A stretch of 64,000 nt of DNA from positions 628,257 to 692,256 of the forward strand of contig CAVSWO010000002.1 in the NCBI GenBank assembly GCA_963731735.1, written 5' to 3'. Source of the DNA: Candidatus Kerfeldbacteria bacterium. Its GTDB lineage: Bacteria; Patescibacteriota; Patescibacteriia; SBBC01; CAIJZX01. Every line of letters starts with the position of its first letter. Within the stretch, counting starts at the first letter, position 1. The position numbers and the translations under genes are program-made. The notes beneath the pieces are model-generated. The model had not been told where the DNA came from. It ran no database searches and saw only the letters and a list, made by a program, of their open reading frames with translations. Shown piece after piece: positions 6,279 to 35,143 of this stretch.

Positions 6279-7959
6279 TTTACTGGTGCTGGGTTTGGTG
6301 GTTTTCGCCCGCCCGGTGTTTGCGCAAGCCTGGTCGATACCTGAGTTTCAGGCAGACATCACGATTAACCAAGACGCATCGATTGACGTGGTCGAAGTGA
6401 TTCGAGTTGACTTTGGCACGGCTAAACACGGCATCTACCGAACCATACCTTTTCGCTACACCGTCGGTGACAATTCGACGGTCAGTGTGCCATTGACGAT
6501 TCGCAGCGTGCGGATGGACGGCCGATCAATCAAATATACAGAGCGGCAGAGTGGAAACGATGTGACGTTGAAAATTGGTGATCCCAACACCACCATCACC
6601 GGCGCGCATGTCTATACGATTGATTATACGGCGCAAGCCGCCATCAATTTCTTCAGTGACCACGACGAGCTCTATTGGAACGTGACCGGTAGCGATTGGG
6701 AGGTGCCGATCCAAAGTGTTAGCGCCAGTGTGCATTGGCCGTCCCAGGTATCGGCTGACCAGCAGCGGGTCGGTTGCTATACCGGCGCCATCGGTTCCCG
6801 GGCGCGTGACTGCCTGGCCCAAGCTGAAACTGGTCAAGCGACGTTTTCGGCGCAAGATTTTCTGACGGTTGTTGTCGGTGCGCCGCCGGGGACGGTGACC
6901 AAACCAGCCAATTACGATACCCTTCGGACGTCGGCCGGTCAATCCGAATTTACCCGACGGTTTCTTTCGATGCCAATCATGAGCTTGAACCTCTTGATTC
7001 TCCTGGGATCGATGGTTGGCATAGTGGTTGCCTGGCGTCGCTACGGTCGCGATCCACGCAGTCGTGGAACGGTGATCGCACAATACGAACCTCCGGCCGG
7101 GCTGCGACCAGGTGAAGTCGGTGTGGTATTTAATGAACGGGCAAACCAGCGCGATCTGTCGGCCACAATCATTGATTTGGCCGTTCGCGGCTATCTTGAA
7201 ATTACGGAAATTGAAAAGAAGCACGCGCTCGGTCTTGGCCACTCAACCGACTACAAACTCAATCTGAAAAAATCCATTAATGATAGCGCTTTGCAACCCT
7301 ATGAACAGCAAATGCTCAAGGGCCTGTTTGGAACAGCCAAGCAGCAGGTCTTATCCGATCGCAAAGGCAAGATGCATACCGAGGTGAAACAAGCCCAAAC
7401 AGGTTTGTATCAACGGGTGGTTAGGCTGGGACTCTTTGACCACAACCCGCAACGCACGCGCTGGACTTTCGCGGGGGTGGGCATTGCCTTACTGTTTTCG
7501 GGTTTTTGGATTGTTCCATCAGGCATTGTGGCGGTACCAGTCATGGGACTGGTTTTCCTGATCGCCGCGCCGTTTATGCCGAAGCGCACGAAAGCCGGGG
7601 TTGACGCATATTGGCAGGCCCGTGGTTTTAAACTGTTTTTAGAAAAGGCGGAGAAGTATCGCCTCAAGTGGCAAGAAAAAGAACACATCTTCGAGCAATA
7701 CTTACCCTACGCCATGGTTTTTGGAGTGGCCGATAAATGGAGCAAAGCCTTCAAGGATCTGCAGCAGGCGCCGCCGGACTGGTATCATGGGGCAGCCGGC
7801 GGTCAATTCAACACCCTTTTGCTGTGGTCAGCCTTGAGTAATTTTACTTCGGTTTCGGCCGCCAGCTTCGCGCCGCCGGCCGCCAGCGGCAGTTCCGGTT
7901 TTGGCGGCGGTGGATTCTCGGGCGGGGGATTCGGTGGGGGCGGCGGCGGATCTTGGTAA
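6238..7959 (+). CDS. DUF2207-like membrane protein with a glycine-rich C-terminus
   Basis: It has an N-terminal signal, a large extracytoplasmic domain, TM helices and the C-terminal sequence SGSSGFGGGGFSGGGFGGGGGGSW. An alternative start lies at 6256. Confidence 0.65.
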   Translation: MKTCLRMWRKLWPSLLVLGLVVFARPVFAQAWSIPEFQADITINQDASIDVVEVIRVDFGTAKHGIYRTIPFRYTVGDNSTVSVPLTIRSVRMDGRSIKYTERQSGNDVTLKIGDPNTTITGAHVYTIDYTAQAAINFFSDHDELYWNVTGSDWEVPIQSVSASVHWPSQVSADQQRVGCYTGAIGSRARDCLAQAETGQATFSAQDFLTVVVGAPPGTVTKPANYDTLRTSAGQSEFTRRFLSMPIMSLNLLILLGSMVGIVVAWRRYGRDPRSRGTVIAQYEPPAGLRPGEVGVVFNERANQRDLSATIIDLAVRGYLEITEIEKKHALGLGHSTDYKLNLKKSINDSALQPYEQQMLKGLFGTAKQQVLSDRKGKMHTEVKQAQTGLYQRVVRLGLFDHNPQRTRWTFAGVGIALLFSGFWIVPSGIVAVPVMGLVFLIAAPFMPKRTKAGVDAYWQARGFKLFLEKAEKYRLKWQEKEHIFEQYLPYAMVFGVADKWSKAFKDLQQAPPDWYHGAAGGQFNTLLLWSALSNFTSVSAASFAPPAASGSSGFGGGGFSGGGFGGGGGGSW

Positions 7960-27086: not shown

Positions 27087-30008
27087 ATGCCAGGGGAGAT
27101 TCCGGATAAAGTAAATCGCGAGCAGCAGGCCGCCATTCGCCATGGCCGGGGGCCGCTCTTGATCGTGGCCGGCGCTGGAACCGGGAAAACCACGGTCGTG
27201 ACCGAACGGATTGCGCACCTGATCATGAACGAACAGGTTCCGTCGGACAATATCCTGGCCCTGACCTTTACCGATAAAGCGGCCGGTGAAATGCAGGACC
27301 GAGTTGAGCGGATTTTACCGTTCGGGTATGTCGACCTGTGGGTCATGACCTTTCACAGCTTGGGCCAGCGGCTGCTGAAAGAGCACGCGCTTGATATCGG
27401 GCTGTCCAATGATTTTAAACTCTTATCCCAAACCGACCAGTGGCTGCTGATTCGGGAACATTTGGAAGAATTCGATTTGGAGTACTATCGGCCGCTCGGC
27501 AATCCGACGAAATTTATTTCCGCCCTGGTCCGGCACTTTTCACGCTTGAAAGACGAAGATATTTCACCGGAGGAATATTTAAAGTATGCGAAAACTTTGT
27601 CCAAGGGCAAAACGAAGAAAGCAGCCGAAGACCAGGCCGAAGCCGATCGGATAATGGAAGTCGCGAAGGCCTACCAAAAGTATAATCAGTTGTTACTCGA
27701 CAACAACGCCCTGGATTTTGGCGATCTCATTCTGTATACCTTGCGGCTGCTGCGGGAACGGCCGGCCATCCTGAAAAAGTATCAGCAGCAATTCCAGTAT
27801 ATCCTGGTCGACGAATTTCAGGACACGAACTGGGCGCAGTTTGCATTGATTAAACGACTGGCGGCGCCGCGCAACAATCTGACGGTGGTCGGTGACGATG
27901 ACCAATCAATCTACAAATTCCGCGGCGCTTCGGTTTCAAACATTATAGAATTCAAGAAAGATTTTCCGGAGGCCGAAGTGGTGGTATTAACCAAGAACTA
28001 TCGGACCCAGCAGAAGATCTTGGACCTGGCCTATGCGTTTATCCAGCAGAATAACCCCGATCGCCTGGAAGCCAAGCAGGATTTGTTTGGCGGTCTGTCG
28101 GTCGTCAAGAAACTGACGGCCCAGCGCCCCGGTTCGGGGGAAACCGGCTGGTTGCATCTGGACACCCAGGAAGCCGAGGCTCGGGCGGTGGCCGATAAAA
28201 TCGAAGCTCTGCGGCAAAACGATCCGAAGTTAGGCTGGGACGCCTTCGCGGTTCTGGTTCGCGCCAATGATCATGCCCAATTGTATCTGCAGGAGTTCGA
28301 GCGGCGCGGCCTACCGCATGTATTCCTGGCCGCCCGCGGCTTATTTACGAAACCGTTGGTGCTCGATCTCTTGGCGTATCTGCGTCTGCTCGATAACTAT
28401 CACGAAAGTTCGGCCCTGGCCCGCGTGCTGGCCATGCCAATCTGGGCGATTGATCACGGCGACGTGGTGGAACTATCCTACCAAGCCAAAAAGAAAACCC
28501 GATCGCTGTTTGAGCAGCTCCAGCATGATGATGTTTCGGTATCCGATTCGACGCGCCAAGGCATCCAACGACTGAAGCAACTGGTAGCCGAACACACTAA
28601 AGACGCCAATAGCAAAAAGGCCGGTGAAGTGGTGCTGCAGTTCCTGAATGATTCCGGCTATCTCAAAGCCATGACCAAGGAGGAAACAGCCGAGTCGCAG
28701 CAGCAGACCGCACTGTTGCGGCAATTTTTCAAAGTGATTGAAACCTTTCAGCAGGGCGAAACCCACGCCTCGGTCAAAGGACTGTTGCGATACATTGACC
28801 ATGTGATGGAATCCGGCGACGCCGGCGGCTTGGAACATGATGTCGAGGCCGGCCCTGAGACCATCAAAATCATGACCGTTCACTCGGCCAAGGGCCTGGA
28901 GTTTCCCTACGTTTTTATCGGCAACATGGTCGAGGATCGCTTTCCCGGTCGCGACCGCCACGACCCGATTCCGGTCCCGGACGCCCTGGTCCGCGAAGTG
29001 TTGCCGTCCGGCGACGCCCATCTGCAGGAAGAACGTCGTTTAATGTACGTGGCGATCACCCGGGCCCGGAACGGCGTCTGGTTAACCGCGGCCGAAGACT
29101 ATGGCGGCCAGCGCCGGAAAAAGCCCTCCAAGTTCGTCTATGAACTGGGGTTATTGCAGCCACCGGTCAAGGCCGAAAAGAAGCCGCCGCTGCCGGCTCG
29201 TGAATTCAAACCCACCCCGGTCCAAAAAAAAGAAGCGGCCGCCTACCTGGCCAAGGAAAATCAGTTTAGTTTTACGAAACTCTCAACCTACAACGATTGC
29301 CCCTGGAAATACCGCTACGCCTTCGTGCTACAAGTCCCGAAGCGGGGGAGTCACGCGCTGTCGTACGGATCGTCGGTCCACAAAACCCTGCAGAATTTCT
29401 TCGCCCTTTGGAAGACACGGGAGCCGGCCGGCAAGTCCGTCAGTTTGGACGAGCTGCTGACCTTTTACGATCGCTGCTTCATCGACGAATGGTACTCGAG
29501 CAAGGCCCAGAAAAAAGAATATTACGACAAAGGCAAAGCCGCCTTAACGACCTGGTACAGCCGCGTCAGCAAACAGCCGCCGGAGGTCTTGCGACTGGAG
29601 CAGGTCTTTAATCTGAAGGTCGATGAATTCGTGATCAACGGCGCGATCGATCGGATCGACAAAATCGGCGGCTCGGACGAAAATCCGGAGGTCAAAATTG
29701 TCGATTATAAAACCGGCAAAGTTAAAGAGAAATTCGCCAAGGACGATAAGTACCAGCTCTTGATTTACGCCCTGGCCGTGCAGGATCCGAATATTCTGCC
29801 GGGCGAGGTCAAGCAACTGGAATACTACTTTATCGACGAAAACGTTTCAAAAACCTACCAGCCGACCGAACAGGACCGGACGGATACCCTGGATTGGATT
29901 CGCCAGACGGTCGGTAAAATCCAATCGGGTGATTTTCATCCGACACCCAGTAAATTTATCTGCGACTACTGCGACTTTAAAGAGATCTGCGAATTCCGAG
30001 CAGTGTAA
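27087..30008 (+). CDS. UvrD/PcrA-type SF1 helicase fused to a C-terminal PD-(D/E)xK nuclease with a Cas4/AddB-like 4-Cys Fe-S cluster
   Basis: Helicase motifs are I (AGAGTGKTT), II (LVDEFQDT), III (VVGDDDQSIY) and VI (TVHSAKGLEFPYVFI). The nuclease region reads IDRIDK...VKIVDYKTGK. The Cys pattern is CPWKY...CDYCDFKEIC. Confidence 0.85.
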   Translation: MPGEIPDKVNREQQAAIRHGRGPLLIVAGAGTGKTTVVTERIAHLIMNEQVPSDNILALTFTDKAAGEMQDRVERILPFGYVDLWVMTFHSLGQRLLKEHALDIGLSNDFKLLSQTDQWLLIREHLEEFDLEYYRPLGNPTKFISALVRHFSRLKDEDISPEEYLKYAKTLSKGKTKKAAEDQAEADRIMEVAKAYQKYNQLLLDNNALDFGDLILYTLRLLRERPAILKKYQQQFQYILVDEFQDTNWAQFALIKRLAAPRNNLTVVGDDDQSIYKFRGASVSNIIEFKKDFPEAEVVVLTKNYRTQQKILDLAYAFIQQNNPDRLEAKQDLFGGLSVVKKLTAQRPGSGETGWLHLDTQEAEARAVADKIEALRQNDPKLGWDAFAVLVRANDHAQLYLQEFERRGLPHVFLAARGLFTKPLVLDLLAYLRLLDNYHESSALARVLAMPIWAIDHGDVVELSYQAKKKTRSLFEQLQHDDVSVSDSTRQGIQRLKQLVAEHTKDANSKKAGEVVLQFLNDSGYLKAMTKEETAESQQQTALLRQFFKVIETFQQGETHASVKGLLRYIDHVMESGDAGGLEHDVEAGPETIKIMTVHSAKGLEFPYVFIGNMVEDRFPGRDRHDPIPVPDALVREVLPSGDAHLQEERRLMYVAITRARNGVWLTAAEDYGGQRRKKPSKFVYELGLLQPPVKAEKKPPLPAREFKPTPVQKKEAAAYLAKENQFSFTKLSTYNDCPWKYRYAFVLQVPKRGSHALSYGSSVHKTLQNFFALWKTREPAGKSVSLDELLTFYDRCFIDEWYSSKAQKKEYYDKGKAALTTWYSRVSKQPPEVLRLEQVFNLKVDEFVINGAIDRIDKIGGSDENPEVKIVDYKTGKVKEKFAKDDKYQLLIYALAVQDPNILPGEVKQLEYYFIDENVSKTYQPTEQDRTDTLDWIRQTVGKIQSGDFHPTPSKFICDYCDFKEICEFRAV

Positions 30009-30056
30009 ATGAAACGCAAGAAACCGCGGCGGTTACGCGCTGTTATAGGATGTAAA

Positions 30057-30710
30057 TTATTTTCGCCTCTTCGTCGAACGCTTTGTGTACTTTGCGGGTG
30101 ATACAGTACATACAAAGCTCATCCAATTATTGCCGCCTTCCGATTTCTGGAACTGCTTGATAACTCGGAAACCATGTTCCCGCAGAATGTTCCTAAATTC
30201 ATTTTTGGAATAAAAGGCAAAAAATCTCGTTACACCGCCGTATTTTTCTTGCGTGATTACTTGTTCATCAACATTACTTTTTTCTTTCATCGAAACCACA
30301 AACATGCCTTGCGGTGTTAACAGACGGCGAATAGAACGAAGGACCTTCGGCAGCCGCCTTTTTGGAATATGGAGCAAGGTAGCAATAGACCACACTGCAT
30401 CAAACTGGTGAGCCGGAAAGCGGAGATCATAAAAGCTCATTTTCTTGAATGTGCCCTTTGGATTGAGTTTTTGTGCTAACGCTAAGAGTCCTTTTGAAGC
30501 GTCGGTACCGATGTAGTCAAAACCGGCCTGAAGTAGATCATGTGCGTCTCGACCGCCCCCACACCCGATTTCGAGGACGCGGTTGCCGTGAATTTGGCGA
30601 TGAAGTTCATCCAGTTCATCTTTCCAAAAATGAAACATCCGATTCGTTGTAGCATACTTCGGCGCAATTTTGTCGTAGGCTTCGATTGTTTGTTTTGTGC
30701 GTAAGTCCAT
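30057..30710 (-). CDS. class I SAM-dependent methyltransferase (Methyltransf_11-like)
   Basis: Motif I reads VLEIGCGGGRDAHDL. It is the first gene of the AT-rich island and is convergent with the helicase gene. Confidence 0.75.
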   Translation of the reverse strand: MDLRTKQTIEAYDKIAPKYATTNRMFHFWKDELDELHRQIHGNRVLEIGCGGGRDAHDLLQAGFDYIGTDASKGLLALAQKLNPKGTFKKMSFYDLRFPAHQFDAVWSIATLLHIPKRRLPKVLRSIRRLLTPQGMFVVSMKEKSNVDEQVITQEKYGGVTRFFAFYSKNEFRNILREHGFRVIKQFQKSEGGNNWMSFVCTVSPAKYTKRSTKRRK

Positions 30711-30921
30711 GAGCGAAAATAATTTATTTCCGATAACGTTTGCGCGTACACGATTTTACGTAGTATATCGGGTACGCGCTGTTGTACGGAGTCGGGGTTC
30801 CGAACATTGACAAGTGTCAGGTTCTATGTAAAAGTCTAACACACTTTGTACATTCCCTGGTAGCTTAGATTCAACAGGGCGTTGTTTCTAGGTAGCCATC
30901 GACTCATTAGGAGACATAGCC

Positions 30922-31251
30922 ATGAGTAGTGGTAGTGTCGCCCGACAGGAGCGCGAGTTTCTGGCGTGTGTGATCCGTCATCTCCCAGAGCTTTTTCCAA
31001 ATGAACGGCAGGCGTGGATTGAAAACCAGGATCTTCTGTCCGAAAGGTTGGAGCTAGCCCTGGACATGGTAAGCCCCAGGATCAAACTCCTTGAACGTCT
31101 AAATGAAGGAGTGACGCGCGTCACAAAAAAAGGTCATGCCGCCAAGATAAGACTCTTTCTGTTCAATCTTGGCTCTGAAGACCAAGTGACTGTCGATAAG
31201 CTTGCACGAGCAATCGTTCAAGCTGTTGACCCAGCATCACTCAAAGAGTAG
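30922..31251 (+). CDS. hypothetical 109-aa protein
   Basis: The gene has a TTGACA-16-TAAAAG promoter-like element, an AGGAGA RBS 7 nt before the ATG, and a strong terminator. The product is not recognised. Confidence 0.55.
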   Translation: MSSGSVARQEREFLACVIRHLPELFPNERQAWIENQDLLSERLELALDMVSPRIKLLERLNEGVTRVTKKGHAAKIRLFLFNLGSEDQVTVDKLARAIVQAVDPASLKE

Positions 31252-31265
31252 TGGCACAGATAAGT

Positions 31266-31309
31266 AACGGACTTCGAGATTACATCAACGAGTCCGTTTA
31301 ATTTTTTTA
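31266..31309 (+). terminator. intrinsic terminator
   Basis: The hairpin AACGGACT-(16 nt)-AGTCCGTT is followed by TAATTTTTTT. Confidence 0.7.
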
Positions 31310-31394
31310 CTAGGAACCCCGATTTCGTACAACGTTTGCGTCTCATACGACCGTCTGCCGTAGCAATAGCGAAGGCAGATGTCGTATAGACGCT

Positions 31395-31418
31395 GTTAGG
31401 AGATGTAACAATAGGGTC
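31395..31418. repeat. left copy of the 24-bp inverted repeat GTTAGGAGATGTAACAATAGGGTC
   Basis: Matches the reverse complement of 32072..32095 at 22 of 24 positions. It abuts the stop codon of the kinase gene. Confidence 0.8.
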
Positions 31419-32055
31419 ACTTGGTTAGTAGTTTAATCGCTTTCTTCAGCTGTCCGCTAAAATCGTTGTCCATGTTGAGAACCTTGAATTTGTACTTCCG
31501 CGCTTCTTTATTAAAAAACTGTCCATAGTAACTGACCATTTGTGCGATTTTGTACAAAGTCTTTTTGTTTAAAGTCTTGCGAAGTATCCAATCGTTTGGA
31601 GTTGAGCTTTTCTTTGTATCATGCACAAACTTTTCAATATCAGACTTCACAAGAAAAAGAACGCGGAAATGTTTACCGCCATATTTTTTAATAAGTCGAG
31701 CTGCAAGTTGTGGCGTTATGTGGTAGCCCTCTAGAATGTAGTCATTCCCATCTTTGATTTCAGATATGGCAAACATATCTAAAGCATCATAACTTGCTAC
31801 AGCTTGCTTCATGTAATTTTTGGCAACCCGATGTGGAGTGTTGCGTGAATATGTTTCATCATTTGTTTTACCTTTTTTGGAACTGTGAGGATACAATCTC
31901 GCAAGCGCTTGCTTGGAGACATACTTCGAAACATATTCACGAACTACAACTTGCAGCGTGTCAGAAGCAACCCACTGGATTCCGAGCCCTTTGGACAGTT
32001 TTTTGGCGAGTGTGGTCTTACCACATTTTGGCGGACCACCGATTAAATAAATCAT
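31417..32055 (-). CDS. P-loop NTPase/kinase-fold protein, possibly a nucleoside/nucleotide kinase
   Basis: The Walker A motif is IYLIGGPPKCGKTTLAKKL. Length is 212 aa. The gene is AT-rich. Confidence 0.65.
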   Translation of the reverse strand: MIYLIGGPPKCGKTTLAKKLSKGLGIQWVASDTLQVVVREYVSKYVSKQALARLYPHSSKKGKTNDETYSRNTPHRVAKNYMKQAVASYDALDMFAISEIKDGNDYILEGYHITPQLAARLIKKYGGKHFRVLFLVKSDIEKFVHDTKKSSTPNDWILRKTLNKKTLYKIAQMVSYYGQFFNKEARKYKFKVLNMDNDFSGQLKKAIKLLTK

Positions 32056-32071
32056 AGTTGTGATTCAGCAA

Positions 32072-32095
32072 GACCCTATTGTTATTTCTCCTAAC
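32072..32095. repeat. right copy of the 24-bp inverted repeat (GACCCTATTGTTATTTCTCCTAAC)
   Basis: Lies 17 nt upstream of the kinase start codon. It is the reverse complement of the 31395..31418 repeat. Confidence 0.8.
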
Positions 32096-32265
32096 GTCAG
32101 GGATATACGAAGTTTTGCGACGAAGGAGTAAAATTTGGGTGAGGGGCGAGCCGAGCCCCGAACCGTATGTCCCTTGTTAAGTGACCCGAACGGAATGAAA
32201 TGGAGTGAGAGCGCAGCGGGGCTTGAGTTGAGGATTTGTCCTTCATTATAAAAAAGGGCAAAAAA

Positions 32266-33084
32266 TTATTTTTCAGCAACCCAAAATAATCTGTGACTAC
32301 TTAATTTTATACCTTCCTTGTTAAGTTTTTTATCAACCTCTTCAAGATGTGCCTTGTCTTTCATTTTATCAAAATCTGGAATTATTGGGGCTCTTTCAAG
32401 AATTTCTATAACATCGTTAATTGACGAATACACCTGATGAAATTTAAAGTATTTTGATTCAACGAGTTTCATTCCAGATTGTGCCAATAATTTTTTTACT
32501 AATTCAAGTTTTGTTTTCTGATTAGGATAATTTTGCCCTCTTCTAAAAATTTTTTTGAGTTCGATTTTATCCTTCTCGCCAATAGTTTCTTCAATCATCA
32601 GCCCTCCTTTTTTTAAAACGCGAAAACTTTCTCTAATAAAATCAATGTTGGCAGAAAGGGGTCCTCTTGAGCTGAAAATAATATCAAAATGGTCATCTTC
32701 AAAAGGCAAATTTTTTCCATCTGCAACCTTGAAAATAACATTTTTAGCTTCAACAGATTTTTTAAGTTTATCTGCGGATTTTATGTAATCCTCAAAAGGA
32801 TCAATGCCAACAATTTCTTTAAAAAATGGGGAAAGTTTGAGTGTTAGTTCGCCAGACCCACATCCCAAATCCAATATTTTAAAATTTTTGTTGGCGAATT
32901 TTTTAAGAAACTCAAAAAAATTTGGTTTTTCTCCAGCGATTAATTTACCTTGTCCATGAAGCTCGTATTTTTTAAATTTCGTTGAACTTTTCTTATAAAA
33001 AATATCGTGATGATCTTTCATGTTTGTCTTGTTATTAAATAATTTTTTGCCCCTATATATTTTTGGACAAATCCTCAATTTCAC
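32266..33084 (-). CDS. class I SAM-dependent methyltransferase, very AT-rich
   Basis: Motif I is ILDLGCGSGELTL, and the post-I acidic residue and FEDDHFDIIFS are present. The start may be the internal MKDHH at ~33021. Confidence 0.7.
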   Translation of the reverse strand: MKLRICPKIYRGKKLFNNKTNMKDHHDIFYKKSSTKFKKYELHGQGKLIAGEKPNFFEFLKKFANKNFKILDLGCGSGELTLKLSPFFKEIVGIDPFEDYIKSADKLKKSVEAKNVIFKVADGKNLPFEDDHFDIIFSSRGPLSANIDFIRESFRVLKKGGLMIEETIGEKDKIELKKIFRRGQNYPNQKTKLELVKKLLAQSGMKLVESKYFKFHQVYSSINDVIEILERAPIIPDFDKMKDKAHLEEVDKKLNKEGIKLSSHRLFWVAEK

Positions 33085-33280
33085 TTAACGATTGCGCGTA
33101 GGCGAAGTTCGTCGGTGATACAATCGTACCATCACCGGCGAACTTAGGCGAGCGGTTTCTAGGGGATGGCCTTCGGGCGGCCACAGAAACCCGAGCCGCC
33201 TACGCGCTGTTGTACGATGATTTGCCGACCGCCGCATATGTAAAAGAAAAGCGTGGTTGTCTCCATGTTACCCGACATTC

Positions 33281-33335
33281 TTGACACGAACTAATCCTTA
33301 TGCTATCCTGCTTTGTCAATTCATGGTGAATTGAC
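33281..33335 (+). promoter_or_regulatory. sigma70-like promoter (TTGACA-17-TATCCT) followed by a perfect 9-bp palindrome GTCAATTCA-TGG-TGAATTGAC, a putative operator
   Basis: Read directly from the sequence. The palindrome lies at the predicted transcription start. A GGAGG RBS lies 7 nt before ATG 33358. Confidence 0.55.
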
Positions 33336-33357
33336 TGCTCCTTTCGGAGGTAGAGCG

Positions 33358-33660
33358 ATGCCAGACATTCGCGTGTCCATTCCTCATCGGCTCGGCAAGC
33401 CCGAAGCGCTCAAGCGAGTTCGCACGCTCCTGACGAACGTCAAGCGTGACCATGGTGACCAGGTCAGCAACCTCGAGGAGCGCTGGCATGACAACGGTGC
33501 CAGGTTCAGCTTCAGTACCATGGGCTTCGATGTCTCGGGGCAGCTGACCGTGAGTGACCGAGAAGTCACTGTCACGGGCAAGCTCCCCTGGCTGGCGGGC
33601 ATGTTCAAGGGTCAGATCGAGGACACGATCCGCGATCAGGCCAGCGAGCTTCTCGTCTAG
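33358..33660 (+). CDS. small protein resembling the 'putative polyhydroxyalkanoic acid system protein' family (PHA_gran_rgn-like)
   Basis: The sequence MPDIRVSIPHRLGKPEALKRV...GQLTVSDREVTVTGKLPWLAGMFKGQIEDTIRD fits the ~95-aa family pattern. The track start of 33313 was replaced by the RBS-supported ATG at 33358. Confidence 0.5.
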   Translation: MPDIRVSIPHRLGKPEALKRVRTLLTNVKRDHGDQVSNLEERWHDNGARFSFSTMGFDVSGQLTVSDREVTVTGKLPWLAGMFKGQIEDTIRDQASELLV

Positions 33661-33691
33661 GGCGCTCCAAGGAATCATCTCCGATAACATG

Positions 33692-33730
33692 GGTCCGGGA
33701 GTAGCGATACTCTCGGACCTAGCTTTTCTT
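33692..33730 (+). terminator. intrinsic terminator
   Basis: A 12-bp stem GGTCCGGGAGTA-GCGA-TACTCTCGGACC is followed by TAGCTTTTCTT. Confidence 0.65.
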
Positions 33731-33899
33731 ACAACATAGGGAGGCAAATTTTCGTACAACGTTTCGGCGTAGACGATAGTGGCGACAGCGCGGAGGCGGT
33801 ACACTTTTCTTGACCGCCGGAGCGACGAGCCATTTCGCGTATACACCAGTGCTTTATATGACGTTTCAGTCTGTCTAATCATACTACCAGCCGGTGTCT

Positions 33900-34343
33900 T
33901 CAGTAAAACTTTCCTATACCAATGTTCTCTAGGGCAAGTTTTGTCTTGAGGCAACACATTGACTGGAAGGTTGCCGATGGAAAAACCAGGTGAGAGCATT
34001 CCATTGATCTCCAGGTTCCATATTTGTTCATTTCTACTGTCCATTTATCTGCAGTGAGGTACAATATCAAAGTCATTCTCGATCTGTAGAAAGTCTGTGC
34101 ATGATGTGAACAAGCTTTAACATCCTCAGGTGCAAGTATTATCCCAGCTTCTTCATGAGATTCGCGAATAATAGTCTCTTTTGCTCCGTTGTTTTCGCGA
34201 CCTTCCAGATGACCAGCAACCACACTGTAATTTCCATCTTGATAGCCTGTATTTAATATCTTCGGAGAAGTAAAACTTGCCCATCTTTTTTCAAGGACAA
34301 GATAAGCTGCTACGAAGGCTCTGAACTTTTCTTTGCTGTACAT
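33900..34343 (-). CDS. NUDIX hydrolase, possibly frameshifted near 34050
   Basis: The Nudix box GHLEGRENNGAKETIIRESHEEAGI is present. The overlapping ORF 33316..34044 in another frame reads NEQIWNLEINGMLSPGF, which resembles the usual Nudix C-terminal region. A perfect TATAAT -10 and an ATACGAAC-agag-GTTCGTAT palindrome lie upstream. Confidence 0.65.
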   Translation of the reverse strand: MYSKEKFRAFVAAYLVLEKRWASFTSPKILNTGYQDGNYSVVAGHLEGRENNGAKETIIRESHEEAGIILAPEDVKACSHHAQTFYRSRMTLILYLTADKWTVEMNKYGTWRSMECSHLVFPSATFQSMCCLKTKLALENIGIGKFY

Positions 34344-34465
34344 AAGTTTATTCTCTAACAGACAGAAGACGAAATGCCATATAACTCGTTATTATACGAA
34401 CTCTGTTCGTATCATAGCCCCTCGAGCCGGGTTTGGCCAGAAAAATACTGAATATATTATGCCAT

Positions 34466-34497
34466 AAAGAAAAACCCCACGGACGAAACGCGCGGGG
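34466..34497 (-). terminator. intrinsic terminator downstream of tRNA-Arg
   Basis: On the minus strand, the hairpin CCCCGCGCG-tttcgtcc-GTGGGG is followed by TTTTTCTTT. Confidence 0.55.
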
Positions 34498-34506
34498 TTG
34501 GATGTG

Positions 34507-34578
34507 AACATTGAGTGAGATTTGAACTCACGACCTTCTCCTCCGTAGGGAGACGCTCTATGACTGAGCTATCAATGC
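34507..34578 (-). tRNA. tRNA-Arg (anticodon ACG) with an atypical D-loop lacking GG
   Basis: Manual fold: acceptor stem GCATTGA/TCAATGT (G1-T72 wobble), D-stem GCTC/GAGC with loop AGTCATA, anticodon stem TCTCC/GGAGA with loop CTACGGA, T-arm GTGAG-TTCAAAT-CTCAC. Length 72 nt, with no encoded CCA. Confidence 0.65.
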
Positions 34579-34582
34579 TCTT

Positions 34583-34865
34583 ATTTGATTAGTTCAATGA
34601 ACAGATGAGGTGACGAGCGCTGCAAAGGCAGCAATGGGATGGTTCGTTCGCAACCGCTCCCACCTCTACCAGAAAGGAGGCTCGTCACCAAAAAAGAATG
34701 GAGGGACACGCGGTGGCGTCTCGTGCCGCTGGAAGGATTCCAGGCAGCTTGCGGCCCCTCCAAGGAGCCGGCATGGGGGAATTGCCCGACAAGGCATCCC
34801 GCACAAGCATCATGCTTGCCTCGGTGTTTTTTGCGAGGACACCAGAGCCCATGCCGGAAATGACC
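34583..34865 (-). ncRNA. structured non-coding region of unknown identity
   Basis: No credible ORF. Several long-range complementary segments are present: CCGGCATGGG...CCCATGCCGG, GGTGACGAGC...GCTCGTCACC, CAAGCATGATGCTTG and CTGGAATCCTTCCAG. Confidence 0.3.
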
Positions 34866-34943
34866 GGAAGAAAAGCGAGCAGAGAGCCGAAGCCGGTGTC
34901 TCCAGCAACACCCGTGCCCGGGAACATTGCACGCTCTGCTCGC
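34866..34943 (-). terminator. long terminator-like hairpin following the tRNA-like gene
   Basis: On the minus strand, GCGAGCAGAG...(49 nt with an internal GCTTCGGC tetraloop)...CTCTGCTCGC is followed by TTTTCTTCC. Confidence 0.4.
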
Positions 34944-34948
34944 CAATG

Positions 34949-35060
34949 CGACGGAGGCGGGAATCGAACCCGGATCTCGAGAACTTTCCGTTTCGATCTG
35001 ACCATCTCGAGATCGTGCTGGCTTGGGAAAGCCAGCCTGTACCACACAGCCTCCTCCGTC
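34949..35060 (-). ncRNA. 112-nt noncanonical tRNA-like gene with an 8-bp acceptor stem, 4-bp T-stem and very long extra arm (tRNA-Sec / allo-tRNA-like architecture)
   Basis: Minus strand: GACGGAGG...(A)GGCTGT-GTGGT-ACAGGC / GCTGGC-TTTCCCAA-GCCAGC / a 10-bp extra arm GATCTCGAGA...TCTCGAGATC / CGGG-TTCGATT-CCCG / CCTCCGTC-G. The anticodon loop has 8 nt, so the anticodon is ambiguous. CCC is the likeliest, with U33 and A37. Confidence 0.5.
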
Positions 35061-35111
35061 AATGCTGTTAAGAACCTGGCGCACCGTATCATGCGGGCCG
35101 AAATCAGTCAA

Positions 35112-35143
35112 GACAAAAAAAGACCCCTAGCGGACTAGGGGTC
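35112..35143 (-). terminator. intrinsic terminator of the 35135..35662 gene
   Basis: On the minus strand, GACCCCTAGTCCGCTAGGGGTC is followed by TTTTTTTGTCTT. Confidence 0.6.

What the first reader, a model, noticed from the sequence alone, without database searches (positions are those of the whole stretch)
30034..33764. Family of short recurrent motifs (GCGCTGTTGTACG; GGAACCCCGAYTYCGTACAAC; TTCGTACAACGTTT) in every intergenic region of the island
TACGCGCTGTT occurs at 30034, 30773 and 33201. The last two continue as GTTGTACG[GA], and both lie upstream of TTGACA promoters. The motif GGAACCCCGA[CT]T[CT]CGTACAAC occurs at 31313..31333 on the plus strand, and as its reverse complement at 30781..30801. 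The motif TTCGTACAACGTTT occurs at 31325 and 33751, both in convergent gene-end regions. All share the core CGTACAAC / GTTGTACG. A second long-range inverted repeat, CGCGTAGGCG...CGCCTACGCG, encloses a 15-bp perfect hairpin and a GCCTTCGGGC tetraloop stem in the 33100..33205 leader. The density of shared short motifs suggests one common regulator, or recombination or processing sites specific to this island.
Basis: seen in the sequence. Interest (0 to 1): 0.55.

Follow-up and report, generated by a model that had tools for sequence, protein, structure and literature searches.

The report
Hairpin recombination sites of gene cassettes
The repeated short motifs are the conserved ends of hairpin recombination sites that separate six mobile gene cassettes in an integron-like array. 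Related ultra-small (CPR) bacteria have the same arrays beside a Xer-like recombinase that lacks the domain defining true integron integrases, which may bear on how integrons arose.

Summary
The motifs are real, far above chance, and confined to the 4.5-kb low-GC island at 30009-34505.

- **What they are.** They are the ends of five hairpin sites with the layout ATTTC-NNNN-AAC-GTTT-[stem...stem]-T-GTT-NNNN-GATG. These sites divide the island into six one-gene cassettes. Each gene segment is flanked by its own 9-25-nt inverted repeat.
- **Independent test.** A covariance model built only from metagenome copies finds three strong sites in the 64-kb window. All three are in the island. It finds none in 1.25 Mb of related genomes.
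- **End site.** The tRNA-Arg end of the array carries ...ATATAAC|TCGTTATTATACGAAC. In eight or more related CPR loci this dif-like "attI" lies directly upstream of a divergent tyrosine recombinase gene.
- **Recombinase.** That recombinase is 270-292 aa and 35% identical to IntI1, but it lacks the IntI additional (I2) domain.
- **Crossover.** Natural presence/absence variants place the crossover at AA|C and show a new cassette inserted exactly at attI.
- **Differences from integrons.** The unpaired features of the hairpin lie on the crossover side, the reverse of classical attC.
- **This window.** It has the array and attI but no recombinase gene, so it is an orphan array.

Verdict: a new variant of a known kind (integron / Xer-exploiting element).

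The parts
27087..30008 (+). Left chromosomal flank: UvrD/PD-(D/E)XK helicase-nuclease gene. Its stop codon lies 34 bp from the first junction.
   Evidence: Pfam. The synteny helicase -> membrane protein -> PheS/PheT holds in 9 Kerfeldbacteria relatives, with only 0.7-2.1 kb between helicase and membrane protein and none of the cassette proteins found.
30009..30044 (+). Truncated or degenerate terminal hairpin (H0). Only the 3' arm TTACGCGC-T-GTT is intact. This is the distal end of the array.
   Evidence: Sequence. The fold is weak (-5.4 kcal/mol; z = -0.86). The matching 5' arm GCGCGTAA is absent.
30009..30736 (-). Cassette F: SAM methyltransferase ORF 30057-30710 (-). Flanking arms at 30042-30066 and 30713-30737 (25 nt, 3 mismatches). 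GC 0.44.
30726..30793 (+). Hairpin site H1 (AAC 30735-30737 ... GTT 30781-30783).
   Evidence: CM R1 53.0 bits, E = 1e-11, + strand only. DNA fold -13.5 to -14.7 kcal/mol.
30737..31332 (-). Cassette E: 109-aa ORF 30922-31251 on the + strand, antisense to the array, with TTGACA at 30807. GC 0.47.
   Evidence: An identical cassette pair lies on Logan contig L001.
31322..31407 (+). Hairpin site H2 (AAC 31331-31333 ... GTT 31395-31397), with a single bulged C after 6 bp on the AAC-side arm.
   Evidence: CM R1 65.8 bits, E = 3e-15. Fold -19.5 to -19.8 kcal/mol, z = -5.1. 89% identical hairpin in L188.
31333..32094 (-). Cassette D: P-loop NTPase-like 212-aa ORF 31417-32055 (-). 24-nt arms at 31395-31418 and 32072-32095. 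GC 0.40.
32084..32190 (+). Hairpin site H3 (AAC 32093-32095, GTCA, GGGATATACG...CGTATGTCCC, TT, GTT 32176-32178). A divergent subtype.
   Evidence: CM R1 gives only 16.1 bits. The MFE fold closes the predicted base stem, -12.8 kcal/mol. Near-identical hairpins lie in Portnoybacteria arrays L203 and L205.
32095..33088 (-). Cassette C: SAM methyltransferase ORF 32266-33084 (-). 9-nt arms. GC 0.33.
33078..33221 (+). Hairpin site H4 (AAC 33087-33089 ... GTT 33209-33211).
   Evidence: CM R1 44.2 bits, E = 2.5e-9. This site was not retrievable by the search pattern, so the hit is an independent detection. Fold -37.7 to -39.9 kcal/mol, z = -5.3. The 5' half is 89% identical to a site in the Kerfeldbacteria array L200.
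33089..33759 (-). Cassette B: PHA_gran_rgn-family ORF 33313-33660 on the + strand, antisense to the array, with a TTGACA-17-TATCCT promoter-like site at 33281. 18-nt arms. GC 0.56.
33749..33866 (+). Hairpin site H5 (AAC 33758-33760 ... TTT 33853-33855). Degenerate: weak stem, and GTT changed to TTT on the non-crossover side.
   Evidence: CM R1 9.5 bits for the 5' part only. Fold not better than shuffles. The 5' part is 89% identical to L200.
33760..34384 (-). Cassette A, next to attI: weak NUDIX-family ORF 33900-34343 (-). GC 0.43.
34374..34416 (+). attI-like, dif-like end site: ATGCCATATAA|C-TCGT-TATTATACGAAC-TCT-GTTCGTATCATA.
   Evidence: The same AAC-T[CGA]GT-T(A/T/G)TTAT(G/A)CGA motif lies directly upstream of the recombinase gene in L192, L198, L199, L109 and L202-L205 and in L207 and L209. 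In L200 the triplet reads ATC instead of AAC. The arm is 10/11 identical to the E. coli dif XerC arm in L198.
34506..34578 (-). Right chromosomal flank: tRNA-Arg(ACG), with its terminator hairpin at about 34470-34505.
   Evidence: ARAGORN; Rfam 62.7 bits

Best explanation
The island is an orphan integron-like cassette array, read on the window's minus strand.

**Anatomy (shown).**
- Six cassettes run from an attI-like, dif-like site beside tRNA-Arg towards the helicase gene.
- In the direction of the array, each cassette is: TT + arm, one gene, the complementary arm ending in AAC, then a hairpin ending in ...CAAAC-G.
- On the plus strand each junction reads ATTTC-NNNN-AA|C-GTTT-GCG[stem...stem]CGC-T-GTT-NNNN-GATG.
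TACGCGCTGTT is one stem arm plus the spacer and GTT. CGTACAAC / GTTGTACG is the variable arm, which happens to be the same in two cassettes.

**Mechanism (inferred by analogy with integron attC and with CTX-phage/dif).**
- A single strand folds so that the two outer arms form an 11-bp duplex resembling the XerD arm of dif, and the stem forms a second arm containing AT-N-CGA.
- Together they imitate the double-stranded attI / dif-like site.
- A tyrosine recombinase exchanges strands at AA|C, and replication completes the event.
- Cassettes are therefore excised as circles and inserted at attI.

**Recombinase.**
- Shown in related loci: the recombinase encoded next to attI is a 270-292-aa XerA/IntI-like protein without the IntI additional (I2) domain.
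- Inferred: a copy elsewhere in this genome serves this array in trans, or the array is now frozen.
- I do not decide here whether this recombinase is also the host's chromosome-dimer resolvase and attI its dif.
For: 1. **Motifs.** Real and island-specific.
2. **Matching arms.** Each of the six gene segments starts with the reverse complement of the 9-25 nt that precede the AAC at its other end. The arm sequences differ between cassettes. In 82 metagenome units all four variable positions match in 53, against 7% for random pairing.
3. **Hairpins.** H1, H2 and H4 fold with z = -2.6 to -5.3. In the 26 family members used for the model, 98.5% of cells pair and 91 cells carry double changes, against 30 in shuffles. 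Sliding the partner collapses pairing to 27-47%.
4. **Independent model.** A model built without any window sequence scores H2 at 65.8, H1 at 53.0 and H4 at 44.2 bits, on one strand only.
5. **Spread of the family.** It occurs on at least 120 metagenome contigs, mostly as co-oriented arrays with a median spacing of 609 bp.
6. **Crossover.**
   - L142 differs from L152 by one 332-bp unit inserted at ACACAAC|GTTT.
   - L205 differs from L204 by a 1009-bp cassette inserted exactly at ...ATATAAC|TCGT of attI.
   - In L202-L205, which encode an identical recombinase, attI has three different left flanks that all break at AAC.
7. **Link to the recombinase.**
   - All six unbiased look-ups of recombinase homologues show attI plus variable small genes diverging from the gene: Kerfeldbacteria twice, Portnoybacteria, Gracilibacteria, a MAG labelled Cloacimonetes, and one unnamed.
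   - R1 hits below E = 0.01 were seen in all six.
   - L192 and L109, found through their hairpin sites, show the same arrangement.
8. **No additional domain.** The recombinase has 20 aa where VchIntIA has 63 and a gap of about 44 aa against IntI1 196-250. It scores 200-234 bits on TIGR02249 against a cut-off of 265, and only profile positions 2-177 match.
9. **Strain-specific island.** Nine relatives keep the flanking synteny without it. Cassette GC is 0.33-0.56 against 0.54 for the host.
10. **Gene direction.** ORFs lie on the array strand in 58 of 75 metagenome cassettes (p = 2e-6) and in 4 of 6 here.
Against: - No recombinase gene lies in the 64-kb window, so activity on this array is not shown.
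- H5 and the terminal H0 are degenerate. The island could be a dead fragment moved here by some other route.
- Nothing here shows which strand folds, or that folding happens in vivo.
- The crossover is located only to within a shared AACGT / TAAC.
- Four metagenome arrays (L145, L191, L194, L141) carry all their ORFs on the other strand, which is unexplained.
- The model's training sequences were selected for folding, which inflates the percentage paired.
- Similar hairpins usually occur with unrelated flanks on both sides, so the hairpin-to-gene linkage rests on four or five informative cases.
Confidence: 0.72

Rival explanations
1. This is an ordinary integron fragment (CALIN). The sites would be classical attC sites served by a canonical IntI, with its additional domain, encoded elsewhere in the genome. 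The Xer-like gene next to arrays in relatives would be a bystander.
For: The layout is attC-like: AAC/GTT ends, an imperfect hairpin of 49-125 nt, one ORF per unit, and cassette-specific arm complementarity. No recombinase lies in the window. CALINs are common according to the IntegronFinder papers listed.
Against: - In every related locus examined, the gene beside the conserved insertion site is the recombinase without the additional domain. This holds in all 6 unbiased look-ups, and cassette gain occurs exactly at that site.
- No recombinase gene of any other kind was detected on the 120 site-bearing contigs; the motif screen and a tblastn with the Xer-like queries found only Xer-like ones.
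- The bulge and the long spacer lie on the crossover side, the reverse of aadA1 attC in R100.
- The family model does not score the class 1 attC at all.
Confidence: 0.12
2. Each unit is a small transposon-like element (MITE-like or IS-derived) bounded by terminal inverted repeats. The units would have inserted in tandem into a palindromic target, so the hairpins are targets rather than parts of the mobile unit.
For: Each gene is flanked by 9-25-bp inverted repeats beginning GTT and ending AAC. Near-identical hairpins occur with unrelated flanks on both sides in 138 pairs.
Against: - The inverted repeats differ between units, apart from ATTTC/GATG and AAC/GTT. A single transposase could not recognise them by sequence.
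- No transposase was detected.
- The gained units in L142 and L205 include one hairpin each.
- Insertion is always at one conserved site beside a tyrosine recombinase gene.
Confidence: 0.05
3. The motifs are regulatory or RNA-level elements: operators for one island regulator, transcription terminators, or RNA processing sites. This covers the reader's first and third options.
For: The hairpins lie between genes. Two motif copies precede TTGACA boxes.
Against: - The variable arm positions covary across about 600-1000 bp of intervening gene, which no operator or terminator needs.
- The hairpins lack T-runs, and terminator-like and promoter-like counts are at shuffle level.
- No Rfam family matches.
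- Cassette presence/absence variants break at the motif.
Confidence: 0.04

Closest known systems
Integrons (IntI / attI / attC; e.g. class 1 In2 of R100, Vibrio chromosomal integrons) and CALINs
   Same: - An array of one-gene cassettes, each ending in an imperfect hairpin bounded by xxxxAAC ... GTTxxxx.
- The first bases of a cassette are complementary to its own site's inverse core.
- New cassettes enter at an attI beside a divergently transcribed tyrosine recombinase gene.
- Cargo is mostly co-oriented and very diverse.
- The recombinase is 35% identical to IntI1.
   Different: - The recombinase lacks the IntI-specific additional (I2) domain that defines IntI.
- The bulged base and the longer spacer lie on the crossover side of the hairpin rather than the far side.
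- The outer arms extend to about 20 bp with a conserved 2-nt mismatch.
- attI looks like dif.
- The hosts are CPR/Patescibacteria. I found no report of integrons in that group.
- The window's array has no recombinase gene nearby.
CTX-phage-type IMEX (mobile elements exploiting Xer): a single-stranded hairpin that imitates dif and is integrated by host Xer
   Same: - A Xer-type recombinase without I2.
- The mobile partner carries a hairpin whose paired arms resemble dif arms. The R arm ATTTCNNNNAA compares with ATTTAACATAA, and the attI L arm TTATGCGAACC with TTATGCGCACC.
- Integration occurs at a dif-like chromosomal site, and elements accumulate in tandem.
   Different: - The units are single promoter-poor genes, not phages or satellites.
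- There are dozens of different units per lineage.
- The site is linked to the recombinase gene.
- The window's copy is not at a GC-skew switch.
- Escudero et al. 2020 (PMC7790495) proposed such a Xer-like stage as a hypothetical ancestor of integrons, not as something observed.
Single-recombinase Xer systems with a linked dif (XerS/difSL, XerH/difH, archaeal XerA)
   Same: - One Xer-like gene with its target site immediately upstream.
- The protein aligns end to end with archaeal XerA structures 4A8E and 5HXY.
- It scores around the cut-off of NCBIfam NF040815.
   Different: Those systems are described as dimer-resolution modules without cassette arrays. Here every examined copy carries variable cassettes at the site.
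Acinetobacter pdif modules (genes flanked by plasmid XerC/D sites)
   Same: Accessory genes bounded by Xer-type sites and shuffled between replicons.
   Different: pdif sites are ordinary 28-bp duplex sites in alternating orientation (my own knowledge of that literature). Here the sites are co-oriented hairpins of 49-125 nt with covarying stems.

Membership tests
Integron (IntI + attI + attC cassettes) | attC ends: inverse core ...AAC and core GTT... | tested here: met
   AAC is present at all five internal junctions and at attI. GTT is present at four of the five internal junctions (TTT at H5) and at the truncated terminal H0.
Integron (IntI + attI + attC cassettes) | Imperfect hairpin with a variable central part, about 50-150 nt, conserved in structure rather than sequence | tested here: met
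   Lengths are 49-125 nt. Covariation in the family: 98.5% paired and 8 of 12 stem pairs with double changes.
Integron (IntI + attI + attC cassettes) | Each cassette's first bases are the complement of its own site's inverse core | tested here: met
   6 of 6 window cassettes, over 9-25 nt. 53 of 82 metagenome units against 7% for random pairing.
Integron (IntI + attI + attC cassettes) | Extrahelical bases on the arm far from the crossover (R''-L'' arm), as in aadA1 attC | tested here: not met
   The bulge and the 4-nt spacer lie next to the AA|C crossover. The canonical arrangement was checked on R100.
Integron (IntI + attI + attC cassettes) | Integrase of the IntI family with the additional (I2) domain, adjacent to the array | tested here: not met
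   None was detected in the window. The adjacent recombinase in relatives lacks the domain and scores below the TIGR02249 cut-off.
Integron (IntI + attI + attC cassettes) | attI beside the integrase gene, where new cassettes are inserted | tested here: met
   Met in related loci. The window has the attI sequence but not the gene.
Integron (IntI + attI + attC cassettes) | Sites recognised by IntegronFinder's attC covariance model | not testable with these tools
   That model is not in Rfam or the toolset. Rfam gave no hit.
CALIN (cluster of attC sites lacking an integrase) | At least 2 attC-type sites less than 4 kb apart, with no integron integrase nearby | tested here: met
   Five co-oriented sites 0.6-1.0 kb apart and no tyrosine recombinase detected in 64 kb. 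This is subject to the attC caveats in the rows above.
Xer/dif with IMEX | Recombinase of Xer type (no I2) | tested here: met
   Shown in related loci only.
Xer/dif with IMEX | Target is a dif-like core: two approximately 11-bp arms around a 6-8-bp centre | tested here: met
   attI reads ATTTCNNNNAA-CTCGTT(A/T)-TTAT(G/A)CGAAC. E. coli dif in reverse complement reads ATTTAACATAA-TATACA-TTATGCGCACC. The L arm matches 10/11 in L198.
Xer/dif with IMEX | The site lies at the replication terminus and serves dimer resolution | tested here: inconclusive
   Cumulative GC skew is monotonic across the window, so the orphan copy is not at a switch. The recombinase-linked copies lie on contig ends and cannot be placed.
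pdif modules | Modules bounded by plain duplex XerC/D sites in alternating orientation | tested here: not met
   The sites are hairpins and all lie in one orientation within an array.
REP/BIME-type dispersed repeats or MITEs | Copies scattered through the genome's intergenic regions | tested here: not met
   No significant hit outside the island in 64 kb. No hit in 1.25 Mb of related loci.

The most novel reading that the evidence does not exclude
CPR bacteria may carry a living "Xer-stage" integron.

- A recombinase closely related to IntI, but without the I2 domain, would capture single-gene cassettes at a dif-like site next to its own gene.
- Each cassette's hairpin would imitate that site.
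- The unpaired features of the hairpin are placed as a mirror image of classical attC.

This would be the intermediate that Escudero et al. (2020) postulated for the origin of integrons, or an independent reinvention of the integron. The recombinase might double as the cell's chromosome-dimer resolvase.

The window would then show that such arrays can also exist detached from the recombinase gene.
Probability: 0.5. Interest if true: 0.85.

Novelty: new variant of a known kind. Interest (0 to 1): 0.72.

Why it matters
- **Origin of integrons.** Integrons are the main gene-capture device behind multi-drug resistance. Their origin from Xer-like recombinases is so far only a hypothesis, and acquisition of the I2 helix is thought to be what made hairpin recombination possible. 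A widespread natural system that uses hairpin cassettes with an I2-less recombinase would make that question testable in vitro.
- **Missed by current tools.** Integron-finding programs require the additional domain, so they would not call these platforms complete integrons in CPR genomes.
- **Gene exchange in CPR bacteria.** It would identify a route for gene exchange in a quarter of bacterial diversity. The same hairpin types occur in Kerfeldbacteria and Portnoybacteria.
- **Annotation of this genome.** The 4.5-kb island is horizontally acquired cargo (two methyltransferases, a P-loop protein, a NUDIX protein and two small proteins), not a co-regulated operon.

Tried and rejected
1. **First reading of orientation.** I first took the plus strand as the top strand, with crossover at ctG|TT, using the classical rule that the extra bases mark the far arm. 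I rejected this after the L142/L152 and L204/L205 variants, the attI polymorphism and the ORF orientation all placed the crossover at AA|C.
2. **Simple pattern scan.** A hand-written scan for AAC-spacer-stem...stem-spacer-GTT gave 25 hits against 18 +/- 6 in shuffles, so it does not discriminate.
3. **Look-up of the helicase.** An exact look-up found nothing on record.
4. **Which flank travels with a hairpin.** Of 191 hairpin pairs, 138 were ambiguous and 1 was right-linked. Hairpin types are shared far more widely than cassettes.
5. **Family model on class 1 attC.** Scoring the aadA1 attC of R100 gave no hit on either strand, so it says nothing about orientation.
6. **First alignment.** The MAFFT alignment of mixed bulged and unbulged sites (A1) put the gap in the wrong column. 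I replaced it with the bulged class only.
7. **Defence-system scan.** PADLOC on the six cassette proteins gave only generic methyltransferase and P-loop similarity.
8. **A second dif.** I considered the palindrome TTATACGAAC-TCT-GTTCGTAT at the window's attI as a second dif. I rejected this because the arms face the wrong way, so it is better read as a hairpin.
9. **Literature.** Six full-text searches found no description of integrons or Xer-linked cassette arrays in CPR/Patescibacteria. Subscription journals are not covered.

Full report
**1. The observation**

- ACGCGCTGTT is exact only at 30035, 30774 and 33202 in 64 kb. Fifteen matches with up to one mismatch compare with 5.1 expected.
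- CGTACAAC / GTTGTACG occurs five times against 1.16 expected, four of them in the island.
- TTCGTACAACGTTT occurs at 31324 (not 31325) and 33751, and in no shuffle.

The island spans 30009-34505. It lies between the stop codon of a UvrD/PD-(D/E)XK helicase-nuclease gene and tRNA-Arg(ACG). Its 1-kb windows have GC 0.34-0.52, against about 0.54 for the flanks.

**2. What the motifs are**

On the plus strand, every intergenic junction follows one plan: ATTTC-NNNN-AAC, a 4-5-nt spacer (GTTT), a stem beginning GCG, a variable middle, the returning stem ending CGC, a 1-2-nt spacer (T), then GTT-NNNN-GA(TG).

The decisive feature is long-range. The 9-25 nt after each GTT are the reverse complement of the nucleotides before the next AAC, on the far side of the gene. 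The arm sequences differ from cassette to cassette, and a 2-nt mismatch sits at positions 10-11 in five of the six pairs.

- The GGAACCCCGAYTYCGTACAAC pair is the two arms of one cassette.
- TACGCGCTGTT is a stem arm plus the spacer and GTT.
- CGCGTAGGCG...CGCCTACGCG is the stem of the largest hairpin.
- TTCGTACAACGTTT recurs because two cassettes happen to share the variable tetranucleotide.

As single-stranded DNA, H1, H2 and H4 fold at -13.5, -19.8 and -37.7 kcal/mol, with z = -2.6, -5.1 and -5.3. H3 closes its predicted base stem. H5 and the terminal H0 are degenerate.

Each interval holds one main ORF:
- two SAM methyltransferases
- a P-loop protein
- a weak NUDIX match
- a PHA_gran_rgn protein
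- a 109-aa protein with no family match

**3. The family elsewhere**

Of 126 pattern matches, 82 distinct sites fold with the GCG/CGC base closed. Many carry a single bulged base after 6 bp on the AAC-side arm.

I built covariance model R1 from 26 of these, using no window sequence. On that alignment:
- 98.5% of cells pair.
- Eight of twelve stem pairs show double changes.
- 91 cells carry double changes against 30 in shuffles.
- Sliding the partner drops pairing to 27-47%.

The sequences were chosen for folding, so the percentage paired is inflated. The double changes are not.

With filters off, R1 finds three strong hits in the window, all on the plus strand and all in the island: 65.8, 53.0 and 44.2 bits. 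The third site could not have been retrieved by the search pattern. R1 finds nothing in 1.25 Mb around the helicase gene of 75 other genomes.

In the metagenome contigs R1 finds 188 + 43 sites, mostly in co-oriented arrays of 3-9 with a median spacing of 609 bp. The arm-matching rule holds there too. All four variable positions match in 53 of 82 units against 7% for random pairing, and 15.2 of the first 20 positions match against 9.3.

**4. Host and context**

The helicase is 70-78% identical to genes in Candidatus Kerfeldbacteria MAGs. Some of these records are labelled 'uncultured Gammaproteobacteria' in their titles.

Nine relatives keep the order helicase, then 0.7-2.1 kb with tRNAs, then a membrane protein, PheS and PheT. 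None carries any cassette protein. The island is therefore a strain-specific 4.5-kb addition. A Logan contig from run ERR11594398 carries cassettes E and D at 100% identity.

**5. Where the crossover is, and which way the array reads**

I first assumed the classical geometry, with the crossover at ctG|TT. Comparative data contradict this.
- L142 differs from L152 by one 332-bp unit. The unit consists of a hairpin, GTT-arm, content and arm-AAC, inserted at ACACAAC|GTTT.
- The block shared by L131 and L171, and the homology between L104 and L149, both end at AAC.
- Four Portnoybacteria contigs encode an identical recombinase (P0094). To the right of AAC their sequences are identical. To the left there are three different flanks.
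- L205 differs from L204 by a 1009-bp cassette inserted exactly between ...ATGTCATATAA and C-TCGTTTTTATACGATG. The cassette is a hairpin followed by a 259-aa ORF.

So strand exchange is at AA|C on the plus strand of the window, which is G|TT on the minus strand. The array reads on the minus strand, and each hairpin follows its gene.

This fits gene direction. ORFs lie on that strand in 58 of 75 metagenome cassettes (p = 2e-6) and in four of six here. The two antisense genes carry TTGACA boxes; only the one at 33281 passes the promoter scan.

Cassette coordinates:

| Cassette | Coordinates |
|---|---|
| F | 30009-30736 |
| E | 30737-31332 |
| D | 31333-32094 |
| C | 32095-33088 |
| B | 33089-33759 |
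| A | 33760-34384 |

**6. The end site and the recombinase**

The window's right boundary reads ATGCCATATAA|C-TCGT-TATTATACGAAC. The same AAC-T[CGA]GT-T(A/T/G)TTAT(G/A)CGA motif lies 90-130 bp upstream of a divergent tyrosine recombinase gene in:
- L192, L109, L198 and L199
- L200, where the triplet reads ATC, and L202-L205
- L207 and L209

L198 and L200 are Kerfeldbacteria. L200 comes from the same assembly as the helicase locus L007 but lies on another contig.

All six look-ups of recombinase homologues, chosen only for contig length, show this arrangement. Variable small genes lie on the attI side and conserved core genes on the other side, and R1 hits below E = 0.01 were seen in all six.

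The site resembles dif. The E. coli dif sequence was confirmed (PMC3025954). In reverse complement it reads ATTTAACATAA-TATACA-TTATGCGCACC. The attI consensus reads ATTTCNNNNAA-CTCGTT(A/T)-TTATGCGAACC, and the L arm matches 10 of 11 positions in L198. The observed junction falls where XerD cuts dif (position of XerD cleavage from my own knowledge). Many hairpin stems carry the same ATTATACGAA as the attI arm, and CG is conserved there in the alignment.

The recombinase is 270-292 aa.
- It is 35% identical to IntI1, with a gap of about 44 residues over IntI1 196-250.
- It has 20 residues where VchIntIA (2A3V) has 63.
- It aligns end to end with the archaeal XerA structures 4A8E and 5HXY.
- It scores 200-234 bits on TIGR02249 (integron integrase, cut-off 265), matching only profile positions 2-177.
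- It scores 210-232 bits on NF040815 (XerA-like, cut-off 220).

It therefore lacks the additional (I2) domain that defines integron integrases. No tyrosine recombinase gene was detected in the window.

**7. Comparison with classical attC**

On R100, reading from aadA1, the attC is TCTAAC-AATTC-GTT[C]AAGCCG[A]CGCCGC...GCGGCGCGGCTTAAC-TCAAGC-G|TTAGAT. The extra bases are on the arm far from the crossover. That the crossover is at G|TT is established knowledge.

In this family, the bulged base and the longer spacer are on the arm next to the crossover. This holds whichever strand one reads. The geometry is thus mirrored.

That is plausible for an enzyme without the I2 helix, which is the part of IntI that reads the extrahelical bases. 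It remains an inference from sequence.

**8. How it most likely works**

Shown:
- the anatomy of the sites
- covariation in the stems
- island specificity
- the crossover position, to within 4-5 nt
- insertion at attI
- linkage to the recombinase in relatives
- absence of I2

Inferred:
- A single strand of the cassette site folds so that the outer arms and the stem imitate the two arms of attI.
- The recombinase exchanges one strand at AA|C, and replication resolves the product. This parallels integrons and CTX phage.
- The window's array is served in trans or is inactive.

The array here looks like a fragment. Its distal hairpin has lost one arm next to the helicase stop codon, and attI is followed by about 90 bp and then the tRNA. 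How it reached this locus is unresolved.

**9. Known or new**

The closest known systems are integrons and CALINs, hairpin-type IMEX elements such as CTX phage, and single-Xer systems with a linked dif.

This system fails the integron membership test on two defining features: the IntI additional domain, and the placement of the extrahelical bases. It works like an integron in every tested respect.

Escudero et al. (PMC7790495) proposed a Xer-like ancestor hijacked by single-stranded IMEX elements as a hypothetical step towards integrons. Six full-text searches found no description of such arrays in CPR bacteria. I rate it a new variant of a known kind.

**10. Open points**

- Four arrays (L145, L191, L194, L141) have all ORFs on the other strand, and L194 also carries phage tail genes.
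- It is not known whether the recombinase is also the dimer resolvase. The window's attI is not at a GC-skew switch.
- Nothing shows which strand folds.
- It is not known whether this genome has the recombinase at all.

Noticed in passing
window 34950-35060 (-), within 34579-35135: A tRNA-like element with a very long extra arm lies next to tRNA-Arg. Rfam tRNA-Sec scores 29.5 bits, below the gathering score of 47, and ARAGORN does not call it. At the same position downstream of the helicase, ARAGORN calls odd tRNAs in relatives: SeC(tca) in L004, Pyl(cta) in L006, and a 4-base anticodon (ctaa) in L003.
   Followed up: partly
L145, L191, L194, L141 (metagenome loci): These arrays use the same hairpin family, but all their ORFs lie on the strand that is antisense in the other 24 arrays. 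They may be a second population, such as a different platform or inverted arrays. No recombinase was seen on these contigs.
   Followed up: partly
L194 1-11300 and 12557-14325: A contig with phage-like genes (Baseplate_J, a tail-fibre chaperone domain) carries a four-site hairpin array at one end. This suggests a phage or prophage with cassettes.
   Followed up: partly
window arms, e.g. 30051-30052 vs 30727-30728; also L154, L162, L169: The extended arm duplex has a conserved 2-nt mismatch at positions 10-11 (TG opposite TT on one strand, CA opposite AA on the other). It occurs in nearly every cassette of the family. It could be a strand-choice signal or a barrier to duplex recombination.
   Followed up: partly
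window 32180-32240; L203 about 6840-6890; L204 about 1600-1640: After the H3-type hairpin comes a conserved element, GACCCGAACG...GTGAGAGCGCAGCGGGGC. It is shared between this Kerfeldbacteria window and Portnoybacteria arrays, so this hairpin subtype is longer than modelled.
   Followed up: no
window 34390-34416; L109 about 601-620: In the window and in L109 the attI arm is followed by its own inverted copy, forming a perfect 8-bp hairpin (ATACGAAC-TCT-GTTCGTAT). L192, L198, L199 and L200 lack this. A promoter-like TGGCCA-17-TATGAT on the minus strand (34439-34411) points into the array and overlaps it.
   Followed up: partly
L009 12935-13240: In one relative, the sequence after the helicase stop codon is flanked by a direct repeat GCTCGGAGGAAAAACCA(G/A)ACGGTT about 240 bp apart. 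It is unrelated to the hairpin family.
   Followed up: no
L003-L009 record titles: Several MAGs whose helicase, PheS and PheT are 70-80% identical to Kerfeldbacteria genes are titled 'uncultured Gammaproteobacteria'. A MAG labelled Cloacimonetes (L209-L211) carries the CPR-type recombinase and array. These are likely taxonomic mislabels.
   Followed up: no
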